This document shows positions 24,898-28,189 of a stretch of 64,000 nt of DNA, piece after piece; the stretch's first letter is position 1, and every line of letters starts with the position of its first letter. Origin of the DNA: an uncultured bacterium (GTDB lineage: Bacteria; Omnitrophota; Omnitrophia; Omnitrophales; Aquincolibacteriaceae). Location: contig CAYPIR010000002.1 of assembly GCA_964410905.1 (NCBI GenBank), positions 78,665-142,664 on the forward strand, read 5' to 3'. The notes beneath the pieces are model-generated. The model searched no databases. It worked only from the letters and a program-made list of their open reading frames with translations, and was not told where the DNA came from. The position numbers and the translations under genes are program-made.

Positions 24898-24912
24898 CTA
24901 TACTAGGTATAG
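24898..24912 (+). promoter_or_regulatory. perfect palindrome CTATAC-tag-GTATAG, ~70 nt upstream of nrdD; candidate NrdR-type operator
   Basis: Seen in sequence. The right half TATAGTG resembles the NrdR box consensus (ACACTATATATAGTGT). No clear second box was found. Confidence 0.3.
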
Positions 24913-24982: not shown

Positions 24983-27034
24983 ATGGCTGAGCAATTTCTG
25001 TCCAAAAAAATTACAAGTATCCGTAAACGCGATGGCTCTATCGTTCCTTTTGATGGTGATAAAATCTACAAAGCGATAGCGAAGGCGGGTGCTGCAACAA
25101 GTGAATATGACGGGGCAGAGGCTCAATTACTAACTTTAGAGGTTATAAAAGTTATTGATAACCGTTATTCTTCTGGATTTCTTGATATAGAAAAAATACA
25201 AGATATTGTTGAGCAAGTTTTAATCTCTTATAATCACCTGAGAACCGCACGCGCTTACATTGTCTATCGTGAGCAGCATAAGAAATTACGCCGCGATCAA
25301 AAGACCGTGGTCGATGTTACTTCCTCTGTAAACGAATATCTTTATAAGTTGGATTGGCGCGTTAATGCCAACGCTAACCAGGGTTATTCGCTTGGCGGAA
25401 TGATCCTCAATATATCTGGCAAAGTCATAGCGAACTATTGGCTTTCGCATGTTTATCCTGATGAAGTCGCGAACGCTCACAGACATGGAGACGTTCATAT
25501 TCATGACCTAGATATGCTTTCTGGTTATTGCGCGGGCTGGTCGCTAAAGACTCTTTTGCGCGAAGGTTTTAATGGAGTTCCAGATAAGGTTGAATCTGCC
25601 GCGCCAAAACATTTAAGTTCTGCTGTCGGACAAATGGTCAATTTTCTTGGAACTCTTCAAAACGAATGGGCTGGAGCGCAAGCGTTTTCTTCTTTTGATA
25701 CTTATCTCGCGCCATTTATCCGCATAGATAAACTTCCTTATGAAGAAGTCCGCCAATGCATTCAGGAATTTATCTATAACTTGAACGTTCCGTCTCGTTG
25801 GGGAACTCAAACGCCGTTTACTAATGTAACATTTGATTGGACTTGTCCGGATGATTTGAAAAATGAGCATCCGATTGTCGGAGGCAAGGAAGTGGATTTT
25901 GTGTATGGTGATTTGCAGACTGAAATGGCTATGATAAATAAAGCCTACATAGAAGTTATGATGCTCGGCGACGCGAAGGGGCGAGTGTTTACATTCCCGA
26001 TACCTACATACAACATTACGCCGGACTTTGATTGGAATCATCCTAATTGCGAAGCTCTTTTTGAGATGACCGCCAAATATGGGCTTCCTTATTTTCAGAA
26101 CTTTTTGAATTCTGATCTTAAGCCTAATCAGATCCGTTCAATGTGCTGTCGTTTGCAGCTCGATTTGCGAGAACTATTAAAACGTGGCAATGGTCTTTTT
26201 GGTTCCGCGGAACAAACTGGCTCACTTGGAGTTGTAACAATCAATTGCGCTCGTATTGGCTACTTGTCAAAAGGCGATGAAACGGCATTTTTCAATCGTA
26301 TTGACTTGTTGCTGCAGCTTGCGAAGACAAGCCTTGAGCTGAAGCGTAAGGTGATTCAACGTCATATGGATGCCGGGCTTTTCCCTTATACCAAACGTTA
26401 TTTGGGAACGCTCCGCAATCACTTTTCAACCATTGGCGTAAACGGCATTAACGAGTGCATCCGCAACTTTACGAATGGAACGGATAACATTACAACAGAA
26501 ACAGGGTTTAAATTTGCCATTAAAATTTTAGACCATATCCGCGCGAAGATGACAACATTTCAAGAAGAGACGGGGCATCTTTATAATTTGGAAGCAACGC
26601 CTGCCGAAGGGACGACATATCGTTTTGCAAAAGAAGACATAAAGCGGTTCCCAGATATTCTTCATGCTGGGACAAAAGAGCGTCCTTATTATACCAACTC
26701 TTCACAACTTCCGGCGGCGTTTACCGATGACCCGTTTGAAGCGCTAAAGCGTCAAGAGGAGTTGCAGCGCAGATATACAGGTGGTACAGTTTTGCATCTT
26801 TATATGGGTGAGAGGATGTCTGATTCTGAGTCGTGCAAAAAACTTGTTCGCCGCGCGCTCGCTGGCTATCGCATTCCTTATATAACCGTAACGCCGACAT
26901 TTTCGATTTGTCCGACGCACGGTTATCTGGCGGGTGAGCACGAGTTTTGTCCAAAATGCGATAAGGAACTTATCAACAAGAAAATGATGCAAGAGACAGG
27001 TTCTCCTGCCGAAGCAACAGAAATCAAATTATAG
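24983..27034 (+). CDS. nrdD: anaerobic ribonucleoside-triphosphate reductase (class III), body without the glycyl-radical segment
   Basis: N-terminal ATP-cone (KRDGSIVPFDGDKI), class III RNR core, and a C-terminal Zn ribbon CPTHGY…CPKC. AAGGAG RBS 5 nt before ATG 24983. The ORF stops at TAG 27032 before any RxxGY motif. Confidence 0.85.
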   Translation: MAEQFLSKKITSIRKRDGSIVPFDGDKIYKAIAKAGAATSEYDGAEAQLLTLEVIKVIDNRYSSGFLDIEKIQDIVEQVLISYNHLRTARAYIVYREQHKKLRRDQKTVVDVTSSVNEYLYKLDWRVNANANQGYSLGGMILNISGKVIANYWLSHVYPDEVANAHRHGDVHIHDLDMLSGYCAGWSLKTLLREGFNGVPDKVESAAPKHLSSAVGQMVNFLGTLQNEWAGAQAFSSFDTYLAPFIRIDKLPYEEVRQCIQEFIYNLNVPSRWGTQTPFTNVTFDWTCPDDLKNEHPIVGGKEVDFVYGDLQTEMAMINKAYIEVMMLGDAKGRVFTFPIPTYNITPDFDWNHPNCEALFEMTAKYGLPYFQNFLNSDLKPNQIRSMCCRLQLDLRELLKRGNGLFGSAEQTGSLGVVTINCARIGYLSKGDETAFFNRIDLLLQLAKTSLELKRKVIQRHMDAGLFPYTKRYLGTLRNHFSTIGVNGINECIRNFTNGTDNITTETGFKFAIKILDHIRAKMTTFQEETGHLYNLEATPAEGTTYRFAKEDIKRFPDILHAGTKERPYYTNSSQLPAAFTDDPFEALKRQEELQRRYTGGTVLHLYMGERMSDSESCKKLVRRALAGYRIPYITVTPTFSICPTHGYLAGEHEFCPKCDKELINKKMMQETGSPAEATEIKL

Positions 27035-27064
27035 TTTTAAATAATTCAATAAGAGGAGGGAAGC

Positions 27065-27241
27065 ATGACACGTGATCAAGTAGTTTTAAATGATGAAGAA
27101 AGAACACGCTGCGAAGTGTGGACTAGAGTAATGGGTTATCATCGGCCTGTTGCCGGTTTTAATATTGGCAAAAAGGGCGAATATTATGAAAGAAAAAATT
27201 TTTTGGAACCCAAAGATGGCGGATGCTCTTGCCTTAAGTAA
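27065..27241 (+). CDS. stand-alone glycyl-radical domain ORF (NrdD C-terminal segment)
   Basis: 58 aa: MTRDQVVLNDEERTRCEVWTRVMGYHRPVAGFNIGKKGEYYERKNF… RVMGY…N.GK…E…R matches the NrdD C-terminus (E. coli TRVCGY…). Same frame as nrdD but separated by TAG, TAA, TAA, and preceded by AAGAGGAGGGA. Confidence 0.6.
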   Translation: MTRDQVVLNDEERTRCEVWTRVMGYHRPVAGFNIGKKGEYYERKNFLEPKDGGCSCLK

Positions 27242-27947
27242 TCTTAAGGATATTTGTGTTGCTGGTATAACGCCGTTTACAACTATAGATTTCCCCGGTC
27301 GCTTGGCCGGAGTTTTATATCTCCAGGGCTGTTCTTGGCGATGCGTATACTGCCATAACCCTGAGTTTTGGACGCTTCCTAAAAATCCCTCCGCGATTTC
27401 ATTTGAAAAAGTTTCTGAATATCTTTTAAAACGAAAAAGAGATTTAGATGGCATTGTTTTCTCAGGCGGCGAGCCGCTCATTCATAACCAGTTATGCTTG
27501 TGGATGAAAGCGGTAAAGGATTTGGGATTTCAAGTTGCCTTGCACACGGGCGGAGCGTTTCCTGAAAGATTGAGAGAAGTTTTACCGTTTTGTAATTGGG
27601 TAGGGATGGACATTAAATCCTCGTTTGAGATTTATGACGAAATAACGCAAGTCGCGGGAAGCGGAAAAAACGCGAGTATATCGGCGGAGATTTTGATTTC
27701 AAGCGGAGTTGATTATGAGTTTAGAACAACGTATCACCCGAAACTTTTTTCTGAAGAACAACTTTTGCGATTAGCTCAGGATTTATCGCGGCGGGGCTGC
27801 AAAAATTATTTTTTGCAACGGCTTCGTCCGTCGCATTGTCCGGATAAAAGATTGAGAGAAAGCAAGGCTGTTGGCATTGATATTTCTGCGGAGACTAGAA
27901 TGCGTTTAAAAGAACTAATTCCGCAAATGGGATTCAGGGAACAATAA
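27186..27947 (+). CDS. nrdG: anaerobic RNR activating protein (radical SAM)
   Basis: CSWRCVYCHN (CxxxCxxC) and …FSGGEPL. Start uncertain (27186 or 27216); it overlaps the glycyl-radical ORF. Confidence 0.8.
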   Translation: MKEKIFWNPKMADALALSNLKDICVAGITPFTTIDFPGRLAGVLYLQGCSWRCVYCHNPEFWTLPKNPSAISFEKVSEYLLKRKRDLDGIVFSGGEPLIHNQLCLWMKAVKDLGFQVALHTGGAFPERLREVLPFCNWVGMDIKSSFEIYDEITQVAGSGKNASISAEILISSGVDYEFRTTYHPKLFSEEQLLRLAQDLSRRGCKNYFLQRLRPSHCPDKRLRESKAVGIDISAETRMRLKELIPQMGFREQ

Positions 27948-27949
27948 AT

Positions 27950-28189
27950 ATGATTTCTAAAGATGAATTGTTGGCGGCGTTAAGGCGAAGTTTGTCGGAA
28001 GAAGAGTTTGCCATAGAACTTTATGAGCAAAACAAAAAAGACTCTTTTTTAACGGAAAATTTGCCCGAAGAAGTAAAAGAAAAGATTAAGACCTTATTTG
28101 AATCTTTTTCTAAAAATTCGCAAGAACATAGAGATGCTTATAATCAACTTATAGAAAAAATTGAGGAAACAGAACAAGATGTCTTTTAA
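27950..28189 (+). CDS. small acidic hypothetical protein (79 aa)
   Basis: The ORF begins 3 nt after nrdG. No recognisable family; helical and E/K-rich. Confidence 0.3.
   Translation: MISKDELLAALRRSLSEEEFAIELYEQNKKDSFLTENLPEEVKEKIKTLFESFSKNSQEHRDAYNQLIEKIEETEQDVF

What the first reader, a model, noticed from the sequence alone, without database searches (positions are those of the whole stretch)
27030..27241. Class III RNR appears split: the glycyl-radical motif is encoded by a separate 58-aa ORF after the nrdD stop
The nrdD body ends after the Zn ribbon (CPTHGY…CPKC) at TAG 27032, followed in frame by TAA and TAA. A strong RBS (AAGAGGAGGGA) then precedes ATG 27065, which encodes MTRDQVV…CEVWTRVMGYHRPVAGFNIGKKGE… RVMGY…NxGK is the NrdD glycyl-radical C-terminus, which in E. 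coli and T4 is contiguous with the body. A trans-acting glycyl-radical peptide would be analogous to GrcA/YfiD for PFL. I do not recall this being described for NrdD. The small ORF also overlaps the nrdG start, which suggests tight coupling with the activase.
Basis: partly seen in the sequence, partly recalled or inferred. Interest (0 to 1): 0.8.

Follow-up and report, generated by a model that had tools for sequence, protein, structure and literature searches.

The report
Two-gene anaerobic ribonucleotide reductase
The oxygen-sensitive glycine-radical loop of this bacterium's anaerobic ribonucleotide reductase is made as a separate 58-residue protein rather than as the tail of the enzyme, and this conserved arrangement, found in many bacteria and as a lone gene on phages and plasmids, was not described in any paper I could search.

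Summary
nrdD (24983-27034) ends just after its zinc ribbon. Three in-frame stops and a strong ribosome-binding site follow. A 58-aa ORF (27065-27241) then encodes the whole glycyl-radical segment (RVMGY...NIGK) and overlaps nrdG.

Pfam coverage of the two products is exactly complementary. The identical peptide gene occurs in four independent assemblies.

The split is conserved. All 120 closest NrdD bodies lack the radical domain. All 87 body-containing loci examined have a separate small ORF, in any of the three relative frames and almost always with its own Shine-Dalgarno-like motif. Codon statistics show strong purifying selection. Carriers include Cupriavidus necator H16 pHG1, Ralstonia, Bradyrhizobium and gut Sutterella.

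Single-chain relatives with the same signature also exist (Geobacteraceae, Actinobacteria), so the split is probably the derived state within RNRdb subclass NrdDh.

The small gene also occurs alone on phage contigs and plasmids.

I found no paper describing this. A 2026 review says spare-part proteins are known only for formate lyases.

Most likely it is an obligate two-subunit class III RNR whose radical-bearing subunit is small and replaceable. Assembly, activation by NrdG and exchange are inferred, not shown.

The parts
24898..24912 (+). Palindrome CTATAC-tag-GTATAG upstream of nrdD. It is a possible NrdR-box-like operator (weak lead, not tested).
   Evidence: Read from the sequence. The resemblance to the NrdR box consensus comes from memory only.
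24983..27034 (+). nrdD body, 683 aa. It comprises an ATP-cone, the class III RNR barrel with an MCCR finger loop (residues 387-390), a zinc ribbon C643-x2-H646-x9-C656-x2-C659 and a 24-residue tail. It has no glycyl-radical motif.
   Evidence: Pfam ATP-cone plus NRDD positions 2-530 of 562, and NCBIfam NF006126 at 1141 bits. The PDB alignment reaches T. maritima residue 617 of 651. The Zn ligands are invariant in alignment A3. No RxxGY is present. An identical 683-aa protein, P0269, exists in public data.
27032..27064 (+). Junction. It holds the nrdD stop TAG 27032, in-frame TAA 27038 and TAA 27050, and the Shine-Dalgarno sequence AAGAGGAGGGA (27051-27061) five bases upstream of the ATG.
   Evidence: Sequence. 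An SD-like motif precedes the small ORF in 85 of 86 distinct related loci.
27065..27241 (+). Small ORF, 58 aa: the free-standing glycyl-radical subunit. Its features are an N-terminal LNDEERTRC segment, a hairpin EVWTRVM-G24-YHRPV, the motif FNIGKKGEYYERKNF and a Cys-x-Cys tail (GGCSCLK).
   Evidence: Pfam NRDD positions 532-562 of 562. Alignment A1 has 21 invariant columns. Gly24 aligns to T. maritima Gly621. Codon-position entropy is 0.49/0.41/1.24. In the AF2 model the peptide stretch from residue 8 to about 47 scores pLDDT 78-94 and the turn at G24 is flanked by two strands.
27186..27947 (+). nrdG, the radical-SAM activase (NrdG2 type, with CSWRCVYC cluster motif). Its start overlaps the 3' end of the small ORF. 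ATG 27216 is an alternative start.
   Evidence: TIGR02495 at 183.9 bits, plus Pfam Radical_SAM and Fer4_12. The same overlap is seen in related loci.
27950..28189 (+). 79-aa ORF directly after nrdG. It is conserved in the closest contigs and gives only a weak ferritin/rubrerythrin-like hit. Whether it belongs to the system is unknown.

Best explanation
This is a class III (anaerobic) ribonucleotide reductase made from two separately translated polypeptides plus its activase.

The 683-aa NrdD body carries the ATP-cone, the catalytic barrel, the Cys-containing finger loop and the zinc ribbon.

The 58-aa product of the next gene carries everything that follows the zinc ribbon in single-chain NrdDs. 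That is the beta-hairpin with the radical glycine (Gly24) at its tip and the short helix after it.

The proposed mechanism has four steps:

1. The small protein docks non-covalently, with its hairpin inserted into the barrel opposite the finger loop.
2. NrdG, whose gene overlaps the end of the small ORF and is probably translationally coupled to it, abstracts the Gly24 hydrogen using SAM.
3. The glycyl radical then generates the thiyl radical for nucleotide reduction, as in ordinary NrdD.
4. Oxygen destroys a glycyl-radical enzyme by cleaving the chain at the radical glycine. Here that damage would be confined to a cheap 6.5-kDa subunit that could be replaced while the 77-kDa body is reused.

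Shown here: the homology and exact complementarity of the two pieces, conservation of the split, independent translation signals, purifying selection and linkage to nrdG. Inferred: non-covalent assembly, activation of the small subunit by NrdG, and subunit exchange after oxygen damage.
For: - **Complementary pieces.** Pfam coverage is 2-530 for the body and 532-562 for the peptide. The joined sequence aligns residue by residue to solved NrdDs, with Gly24 on the radical glycine.
- **Body is complete up to the zinc ribbon.** It keeps a full CxxH...CxxC Zn site, invariant in 31 homologues. This matches the Cys3His site of T. maritima NrdD, where the Zn ribbon sits between the last barrel strand and the radical loop (PMC4493059).
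- **Closest bodies all lack the domain.** The best 120 body homologues (73-100% identity) are 671-700 aa and end shortly after CPxC. The one 748-aa exception is an internal duplication.
- **Small proteins dominate the peptide's relatives.** All of the best 120 hits in the 90%-clustered collection are 52-100 aa. In the 50%-clustered collection 149 of the best 150 are 55-111 aa.
- **Separate ORF in every locus checked.** In 87 loci with body plus small ORF, the body stop precedes the conserved Cys codon by 41-350 nt. The relative frames are 25/18/44 for 0/+1/+2. In 85 of 86 distinct loci an SD-like motif precedes the small ORF.
- **Purifying selection.** Entropy at the third codon position is 1.24, against 0.49 and 0.41 at positions 1 and 2, across 86 distinct sequences.
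- **Reproducible assembly.** The same gene appears in four independent assemblies.
- **Present in a genetically studied system.** C. necator H16 pHG1 has a 676-aa body, a 66-aa CDS and an overlapping activase.
- **Structure prediction.** An AF2 model of body plus peptide built with alignment A4 has pLDDT 79.8 and pTM 0.76. The peptide stretch from residue 8 to about 47 scores 78-94, and a turn at Gly24 is flanked by two strands. The best PDB matches are all class III RNRs.
- **Works away from the body gene.** Lone copies on phages and plasmids show that the small protein is kept as an autonomous module.
Against: - There is no experimental evidence here that the two proteins associate, that NrdG activates the free peptide, or that the enzyme is active.
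- The AF2 model was made from an artificial concatenation. Its alignment includes single-chain relatives, so it leans towards the canonical arrangement. I could not measure the Gly-to-Cys distance. A first model built with a shallower alignment was uninformative.
- The oxygen-economy rationale does not map cleanly onto lifestyle. Single-chain relatives with the same signature occur both in anaerobes (Geobacteraceae) and in aerobes or facultative organisms (Edaphobacter, Corynebacterium, Archangium).
- No proteomic evidence for the small protein was examined.
Confidence: 0.8

Rival explanations
1. The split is an artefact or a decaying gene. Either a sequencing or assembly error or a recent nonsense mutation has broken a normal single-chain nrdD.
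For: Single-chain relatives with the same CEVWTRVMGYHRPV signature exist, so a fused ancestor is plausible. The small ORF is in frame with nrdD in this window.
Against: The junction has three in-frame stops plus a dedicated RBS. The identical arrangement appears in four independent assemblies. The split is present in all 87 body-containing loci from many phyla, with different gaps and frames. Codon statistics show strong purifying selection on the peptide. All 120 closest bodies end at the same place.
Confidence: 0.01
2. Recoding or splicing restores a single chain. Candidate routes are stop-codon readthrough, ribosomal frameshifting, an intron, or protein trans-splicing joining body and peptide.
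For: In the window the two ORFs share a frame and lie only 30 nt apart.
Against: Readthrough would have to pass three stops within 21 nt. In related loci the relative frame is 0, +1 or +2 (25/18/44), and the body stop lies 41-350 nt upstream of the conserved Cys codon, which no single recoding mechanism fits. Nearly every small ORF has its own SD-like motif and start codon. Rfam finds no intron or other RNA family in the window. The body tail after the Zn ribbon (8-47 aa) and the peptide N-terminus are too short and too variable to be intein halves, and no intein domain was reported by Pfam.
Confidence: 0.02
3. The small protein is mainly a GrcA-like repair or booster part rather than a constitutive subunit. 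It would be made to rescue NrdD molecules whose radical loop is damaged or missing, including NrdDs encoded elsewhere, and the adjacent body would be only one of its clients.
For: Lone copies with no body or nrdG within 4 kb occur in 73 of the best 80 viral contigs, some next to holin/endolysin, tape-measure or tail-fibre genes. Lone copies also occur on Allochromatium plasmids and at a conserved chromosomal site in several Sutterella species. This mirrors YfiD/GrcA and phage T4 Y06I for pyruvate formate-lyase (PMC8683613).
Against: In this window, and in all 87 operon-type loci, the neighbouring body has no radical domain of its own. There the small protein cannot be merely a spare. Whether genomes with lone copies also hold an operon copy or a single-chain NrdD was not determined.
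Confidence: 0.12
4. The small protein is a regulator or decoy, for example a competitive substrate that titrates NrdG. On this reading it is not the catalytic radical carrier, and the truncated body is inactive or has another role.
For: None directly. It is considered only because radical-SAM activases are known to act on short peptide substrates (general knowledge of PFL activase).
Against: The body retains every catalytic hallmark and is extremely conserved, at 73-100% identity across phyla. From memory of Siedow et al. 1999, which I could not read here, the pHG1 nrdD-nrdG region is needed for anaerobic growth of C. necator. That is consistent with the account of pHG1 in PMC2864759. A decoy would not need 21 invariant positions matching the whole radical loop and its flanks.
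Confidence: 0.03

Closest known systems
Single-chain class III ribonucleotide reductase NrdD, RNRdb subclass NrdDh (T. maritima NrdD, PDB 4COI/4U3E; N. bacilliformis NrdD)
   Same: It shares the ATP-cone, the barrel, the double-Cys finger loop (MCCR, the variant reported for group NrdDh4), a Cys3His zinc ribbon, the RV(M/V)GY radical loop and an NrdG2-type activase.
   Different: In every characterised NrdD the radical loop is the covalent C-terminus of the catalytic chain. Here it is a separate gene product. Relative to short-linker single-chain relatives, the body gains a short helical tail and the peptide gains an acidic L-x-DEER N-terminal segment.
GrcA/YfiD of E. coli and Y06I of phage T4 (autonomous glycyl radical cofactors for pyruvate formate-lyase)
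   Same: These are also small free-standing proteins that carry only a glycyl-radical loop, act in trans on a large radical-less enzyme body, and have phage-borne versions.
   Different: The sequence family differs: the peptide matches NRDD PF13597, and the PFL-type Gly_radical domain was not among its Pfam hits. GrcA is a spare for an enzyme that has its own radical domain, whereas here the operon-encoded body has none. At about 58-66 aa the peptide is also much shorter than the 127-aa GrcA.
Split class II ribonucleotide reductase NrdJa/NrdJb of Pseudomonas aeruginosa
   Same: It is a ribonucleotide reductase catalytic chain encoded by two consecutive ORFs, with the C-terminal functional module on the second polypeptide (PMC4009431, PMC9669993).
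   Different: [quoted passage not shown] The split point is also different, because here the zinc ribbon stays with the body.
Class I RNR (NrdA/NrdB): radical stored on a separate subunit
   Same: The stable radical resides on a different polypeptide from the catalytic site.
   Different: The resemblance is conceptual only. NrdB is an unrelated ferritin-like metalloprotein that transfers the radical over a long distance. Here the radical loop is expected to sit inside the barrel as in ordinary NrdD.

Membership tests
Class III RNR catalytic subunit NrdD (Pfam PF13597; NCBIfam NF006126/TIGR02487) | Ten-stranded alpha/beta barrel of the RNR/PFL type, here with an N-terminal ATP-cone | tested here: met
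   PF13597 at 596.6 bits and ATP-cone at 80.8 bits. NF006126 scores 1141 bits against a cut-off of 548. The AF2 model's best PDB matches are all class III RNRs, with TM normalised to target of about 0.7.
Class III RNR catalytic subunit NrdD (Pfam PF13597; NCBIfam NF006126/TIGR02487) | Finger-loop cysteine(s) that receive the radical | tested here: met
   MCCR at body residues 387-390, with C388 and C389 invariant in 31 homologues. This matches the MCCR variant of NrdDh4 described in PMC4493059.
Class III RNR catalytic subunit NrdD (Pfam PF13597; NCBIfam NF006126/TIGR02487) | Zn-ribbon between the last barrel strand and the radical loop | tested here: met
   C643, H646, C656 and C659 are invariant. 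This is analogous to the CxxxHx6CxxC site of T. maritima. Metal binding itself was not tested.
Class III RNR catalytic subunit NrdD (Pfam PF13597; NCBIfam NF006126/TIGR02487) | C-terminal glycyl-radical motif RVxGY on the same polypeptide as the barrel | tested here: not met
   The body stops 24 residues after the Zn ribbon and has no RxxGY. The motif lies on the separate 58-aa ORF. The system as a whole has the feature, but the body polypeptide does not.
Class III RNR catalytic subunit NrdD (Pfam PF13597; NCBIfam NF006126/TIGR02487) | Adjacent radical-SAM activase NrdG | tested here: met
   TIGR02495 NrdG2 scores 183.9 bits against a cut-off of 131. The gene overlaps the small ORF.
Class III RNR catalytic subunit NrdD (Pfam PF13597; NCBIfam NF006126/TIGR02487) | Formation of a glycyl radical and NTP reduction | not testable with these tools
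   This needs EPR and activity assays.
[quoted passage not shown] | Homology to the C-terminal radical domain of pyruvate formate-lyase | tested here: not met
   The Pfam scan of the 58-aa protein at E <= 0.1 returns only PF13597 NRDD. NCBIfam returns only NrdD models.
[quoted passage not shown] | Small stand-alone protein carrying a glycyl-radical loop | tested here: met
   The ORF is 58 aa with its own RBS. Relatives are 52-111 aa.
[quoted passage not shown] | Serves as a spare for a client enzyme that has its own radical domain | tested here: not met
   The neighbouring body has no radical domain, in the window and in 87 related loci. For the lone phage and plasmid copies this point is untested.
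Split intein / protein trans-splicing pair | N- and C-intein fragments flanking the junction | tested here: not met
   Pfam reports no intein domain. The body tail is 8-47 aa and variable, and the peptide N-terminus is variable before the L-x-DEER motif.

The most novel reading that the evidence does not exclude
The NrdD radical loop has become a freely exchangeable protein cofactor. Cells would replace the oxygen-killed 6-7 kDa subunit instead of the whole enzyme. Phages and plasmids would carry lone copies as auxiliary 'spare parts' to keep or boost host anaerobic dNTP synthesis. This would be the first GrcA/Y06I-type system for a ribonucleotide reductase. In some lineages the Cys-x-Cys tail of the small subunit might additionally shuttle reducing equivalents, as C-terminal cysteine pairs do in class I and II enzymes.
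Probability: 0.4. Interest if true: 0.85.

Novelty: new variant of a known kind. Interest (0 to 1): 0.78.

Why it matters
[quoted passage not shown] A class III ribonucleotide reductase whose radical glycine sits on a separate 58-66-residue protein would change three things.
- **Activation.** NrdG could act on a small free substrate, so no flip-out of a tethered domain would be needed.
- **Oxygen damage.** The cost of damage and repair would fall on a small, cheap subunit.
- **Experimental access.** A naturally minimal radical domain would be available for EPR, structural and engineering work.

The split also affects annotation and experiments in organisms that matter: C. necator H16, the Ralstonia solanacearum complex, Bradyrhizobium and gut Sutterella. 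Cloning 'nrdD' alone from these would give an enzyme that cannot hold a radical.

The lone phage and plasmid copies point to a possible unrecognised auxiliary gene class. PHROGs lists the family as 'unknown function'.

Tried and rejected
- **Direct PDB search with the peptide.** phmmer with the peptide and hmmsearch with the A1 profile found no PDB match even at E <= 10, because the query is too short for HMMER's filters. I solved this by querying with the body C-terminus joined to the peptide.
- **First AF2 attempt.** Body plus peptide with 31 close body homologues gave mean pLDDT 63, with the peptide below 50, and was discarded. MAFFT also scattered the free peptides along the body in alignment A2, which was discarded.
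- **Single or multiple origin of the split.** Neighbour-joining on the 128 columns shared by split and single-chain forms implied at least 10 state changes. The region is too short and too conserved to trust, so I left this inconclusive.
- **Cultured phages.** tblastn against INPHARED gave no match, although IMG/VR has 332 contigs.
- **Original C. necator paper.** Siedow et al. 1999 could not be read, either by PubMed id or by a guessed PMC id.
- **P0121.** This 988-aa protein was the top hit. It is a repeat protein with ten 'GRCEVWTR'-like stretches and has no relation to NrdD, so I treated it as a chance match.
- **P0334.** This 748-aa protein looked like a possible fusion but is an internally duplicated body without a radical domain.
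- **Oxygen-lifestyle explanation.** I considered it as the cause of split versus fused. I did not adopt it as shown, because single-chain relatives occur in both anaerobes and aerobes.
- **Peptide Cys16 as a fourth zinc ligand.** I rejected this because the body already has four invariant ligands, and the same Cys is present in many single-chain relatives.
Full report
**1. What is in the sequence**

The nrdD reading frame ends at TAG 27032-27034. It is followed in frame by TAA 27038-27040 and TAA 27050-27052. AAGAGGAGGGA (27051-27061) lies five bases before ATG 27065. That ATG opens a 58-codon ORF ending at TAA 27239-27241. The small ORF overlaps the start of the next gene by 56 nt (ATG 27186) or 26 nt (ATG 27216).

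The likely true start of nrdD is ATG 24983, after AAAGGAGAA. This gives a 683-aa product identical to a protein already in public collections.

**2. What the pieces are**

- **Body.** It matches the ATP-cone and Pfam NRDD over profile positions 2-530 of 562, and NCBIfam NF006126 at 1141 bits.
- **Small product.** The 58-aa protein matches NRDD positions 532-562, above Pfam's gathering score.
- **Third gene.** It is an NrdG2-type radical-SAM activase.
- **No hidden radical site.** The body has no RxxGY or NxGK motif, and the window holds no second NrdD or radical-domain copy.
- **Where the body ends.** Against solved structures the body aligns to T. maritima NrdD only up to residue 617 of 651, and to P. 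copri NrdD up to 712 of 743. That is just past the CPxC of the zinc ribbon.
- **Where the peptide fits.** I joined the body, cut after CPKCD, to peptide residues 11-58. The alignment then ran on without a break through the radical loop. RVMGYHRPVAGFNIGKKGEYYERKNF pairs with T. maritima RIVGYLVPVSAFNKERREIEYPRRQF, so Gly24 corresponds to Gly621. It also pairs with the P. copri loop and the T4 (G580A) loop.
- **Zinc site.** The body keeps a complete metal site (C643, H646, C656, C659), invariant in 31 homologues. This is like the Cys3His site of T. maritima NrdD. The structure paper describes that Zn ribbon as inserted between the last barrel strand and the C-terminal radical loop (PMC4493059).

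The gene is therefore cut exactly between the zinc ribbon and the radical loop. The MCCR finger loop places the enzyme in RNRdb subclass NrdDh, in the group reported to have MCCR instead of SCCR.

**3. It is not an error or a pseudogene**

- The identical 58-aa gene, with the stop upstream, is found in four independently assembled sequencing runs.
- The best 120 homologues of the body (73-100% identity; Omnitrophota and many Pseudomonadota) are 671-700 aa long and end a few residues after CPxC. The single 748-aa outlier is an internal duplication, not a fusion.
- All of the best 120 relatives of the peptide in the 90%-clustered collection are 52-100 aa proteins.
- In an exhaustive HMMER search of 1.84 billion cluster representatives, 149 of the best 150 hits are 55-111 aa. 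There were 1402 representatives at E <= 0.001 and 360 at E <= 1e-10.
- A scan of one genome per GTDB species found at least 594 confirmed matches. That figure can include single-chain forms.
- Of the 80 best GTDB loci, 75 have body, then small ORF, then activase. The other five have a lone small ORF.
- I examined 87 loci with both genes, counting the window itself and several loci that are near-duplicate assemblies of the same arrangement. The body stop lies 41-350 nt (median 97) before the conserved Cys codon. The peptide frame relative to the body is 0, +1 or +2 in 25, 18 and 44 cases. No readthrough or frameshift mechanism fits that distribution.
- In 85 of 86 distinct loci, a Shine-Dalgarno-like motif precedes a start codon of the small ORF.
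- Across 86 distinct nucleotide versions of the 41-codon core, entropy is 0.49, 0.41 and 1.24 at codon positions 1, 2 and 3. Many residues are invariant while their third bases vary freely. That is the signature of a translated protein under strong selection.
- The core L-x-DEER-x-x-CEVWTRVMGYHRPV-x-x-FN-x-GKKGE-x-x-ER-x-x-F-x-E has 21 invariant columns among 37 sequences from several phyla.

**4. Who has it**

- The closest relatives are Candidatus Omnitrophota metagenome-assembled genomes, so the window very probably comes from that phylum.
- The same arrangement occurs in cultured Burkholderiales (Castellaniella, Duganella, Janthinobacterium, Massilia, Acidovorax, Chitinilyticum, Vogesella). 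It also occurs in Chromatiales, in Xanthomonas and Stenotrophomonas, in Caulobacter segnis, and in gut Sutterella and Parasutterella.
- A tblastn search found it on 163 plasmids or megaplasmids: Ralstonia 133, Bradyrhizobium 7, Cupriavidus 5, Paracoccus 4, plus others.
- On C. necator H16 pHG1 the annotation shows a 676-aa 'ribonucleoside triphosphate reductase' ending ...CPRCDEEILARKRDQLAA. Then comes a 142-nt gap, then a 66-aa CDS labelled nrdD, then the activase overlapping it by 17 nt.
- From memory, this is the nrdD-nrdG region shown genetically to be needed for anaerobic growth (Siedow et al. 1999). I could not read that paper here.
- The C. metallidurans CH34 genome paper lists NrdDG as Rmet_5137 and Rmet_5139, passing over the locus tag between them (PMC2864759).

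**5. Single-chain relatives exist**

I searched with the joined C-terminus. This brought up many proteins that cover 84-98% of it in one chain and carry the same CEVWTRVMGY(H/F/Y)RP signature. Examples come from Geobacteraceae, Propionibacteriaceae, Corynebacterium durum, Dermabacter, Edaphobacter, Archangium, Legionellales and Asticcacaulis.

- In these proteins the linker between the zinc ribbon and the Trp of the signature is usually 6-15 residues.
- Five have longer linkers of 20-50 residues. The long-linker forms I inspected (P0410, P0452, P0422) contain both the helical D-x-E-I-L-x-x-K segment that forms the tail of split bodies and the L-x-DE-x-R-x-x-C segment that begins the free peptides.
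- The split therefore most likely arose inside an already extended linker of a single-chain NrdDh enzyme.
- Whether it arose once or several times is unresolved. The only shared region is short, and a neighbour-joining tree gave at least 10 changes of state, which I do not trust.

**6. Lone copies**

- Several Sutterella species carry the small ORF at a conserved chromosomal site with no body or activase within 4 kb. An alphaproteobacterial MAG carries it in a prophage-like region.
- Allochromatium vinosum pALVIN01 and A. tepidum pAt1 carry it among plasmid genes.
- In IMG/VR, 332 viral contigs encode a relative. Of the best 80, 73 have no body and none has nrdG within 4 kb.
- Neighbouring genes include holin and endolysin, a tape-measure protein and a tail fibre protein, so at least these contigs are real phage genomes.
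- One phage has two radical-SAM genes directly upstream of the small ORF.
- PHROGs groups these peptides in phrog_4132, 'unknown function'. Cultured phages in INPHARED gave no match.

**7. Structure prediction**

A model of body plus peptide, simply concatenated, was built with an alignment holding split bodies and single-chain C-terminal fragments.

- It reached mean pLDDT 79.8 and pTM 0.76.
- The body tail forms a helix (residues 657-672).
- The junction region is less confident: the blocks spanning residues 671-690 score 65 and 78.
- Peptide residues 8-47 score 78-94.
- Peptide residues 17-22 and 25-28 form two strands flanking a turn at Gly24, followed by a helix at residues 34-42.
- The best PDB matches are all class III RNRs, with TM normalised to target of about 0.7 for T. 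maritima, T4 and P. copri.

This is consistent with the canonical placement of the radical loop. It is not independent evidence, because the alignment contains single-chain relatives and I could not inspect the coordinates.

**8. Mechanism proposed**

Shown:
- the two genes together encode every part of a class III RNR;
- they are translated separately;
- both are conserved and linked to the activase;
- the small one can also persist on its own on mobile elements.

Inferred:
- the small protein docks its hairpin in the barrel opposite the finger loop;
- NrdG installs the radical on Gly24, either on the free protein or on the complex;
- catalysis then proceeds as in other NrdDh enzymes;
- after oxygen cleavage at the radical glycine only the small subunit needs replacing.

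Speculative: the acidic L-x-DEER segment of the peptide may replace the covalent tether by pairing with the basic helical tail of the body.

**9. Literature**

- Full-text searches for NrdD with 'split', 'spare part', GrcA or 'autonomous glycyl radical', and for phrases such as 'split NrdD' or 'truncated NrdD', found no description.
- RNR reviews and family analyses describe class III as nrdD plus nrdG with the radical on the C-terminal domain of NrdD. The only split RNR they treat is P. aeruginosa NrdJa/NrdJb.
- An earlier paper notes only that spare parts for other such enzymes are conceivable (PMC8683613).
- The library searched excludes most subscription-journal papers, so a prior mention cannot be excluded.
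- Databases already contain the small proteins under generic names: 'anaerobic ribonucleoside-triphosphate reductase' or 'hypothetical protein'. NCBIfam has no dedicated model that the peptide passes.

**10. Verdict**

The feature is a real, widespread and apparently undescribed variant of a known enzyme. Its biochemical consequences are directly testable.

Noticed in passing
L094-L173 (IMG/VR contigs), e.g. L116:4001-4171, L096:3992-4177, L104:4001-4141, L154:4001-4126: Lone NrdD-type glycyl-radical peptides occur on phage contigs. There are 332 contigs in all. Of the best 80, 73 have no NrdD body and none has nrdG within 4 kb. Neighbours include holin and endolysin, a tape-measure protein and a tail fibre protein. 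PHROGs files the peptides under phrog_4132, 'unknown function'.
   Followed up: partly
L096:1737-3991: In one gut phage contig, two radical-SAM genes (336 and 432 aa, Radical_SAM plus Fer4_12) lie directly upstream of the lone peptide gene. They may be a phage-encoded activase, but no NrdD body is nearby.
   Followed up: partly
L092:3501-3710 (Allochromatium vinosum pALVIN01); L093:2460-2645 (A. tepidum pAt1); L029, L032, L035, L057 (Sutterella); L064 (Alphaproteobacteria MAG): Lone copies of the small gene sit on plasmids (beside CHAP-domain, DUF4942 and ProQ/FinO genes), at a conserved chromosomal site in several Sutterella species, and in a prophage-like region. Whether these genomes also have an operon copy is unknown.
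   Followed up: partly
window 27221-27238 (GGCSCLK) and the tails of related peptides: The peptide ends in a Cys-x-Cys tail. Among 277 small peptides collected, 59 have two or more Cys in the tail (46 as CxC), especially in Omnitrophota and phage versions (for example KKCSCRK, KKCCCRK, GCGCS). This recalls the C-terminal redox-shuttle cysteine pairs of class I and II RNRs. It is not universal in the family.
   Followed up: partly
window 27110-27112 (Cys16 of the peptide): A Cys eight residues before the radical Gly is present in 277 of 277 small peptides and in most, but not all, single-chain relatives. The body already has four zinc ligands, so the role of this Cys is unexplained.
   Followed up: partly
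window 24898-24912: The palindrome CTATAC-tag-GTATAG lies about 70 nt upstream of the nrdD start. It may be an NrdR-type operator, but it was not compared with a curated motif.
   Followed up: no
window 27950-28189: A 79-aa ORF lies three bases after nrdG and is conserved in the closest contigs (L007-L009). It gives only weak ferritin/rubrerythrin-like and EncB-like hits (E about 0.002-0.009). It is not conserved in proteobacterial operons.
   Followed up: partly
P0410, P0452, P0422 (metagenomic proteins): These single-chain NrdDs have unusually long linkers (20-50 aa) that contain both the split-body tail motif and the peptide N-terminal L-x-DE-x-R-x-x-C motif. They are either intermediates towards the split or re-fusions of it.
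   Followed up: partly
P0269-P0388 versus the window body: The NrdD body is 73-76% identical between Omnitrophota and Beta/Gammaproteobacteria. That is unusually high across phyla and suggests horizontal transfer of the whole three-gene module. Many copies are on plasmids or megaplasmids.
   Followed up: no
PMC2864759 (C. metallidurans CH34 genome paper): The paper names NrdDG as Rmet_5137 and Rmet_5139, skipping Rmet_5138. That tag sits where the small gene would be expected, so the small gene was probably passed over. I did not inspect the CH34 sequence.
   Followed up: no
P0121 (988 aa) and P0334 (748 aa): P0121 is a repeat protein with ten 'GRCEVWTR'-like stretches that topped the exhaustive search by chance. 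P0334 is an NrdD body with an internal duplication of about 70 residues, probably an assembly artefact.
   Followed up: yes
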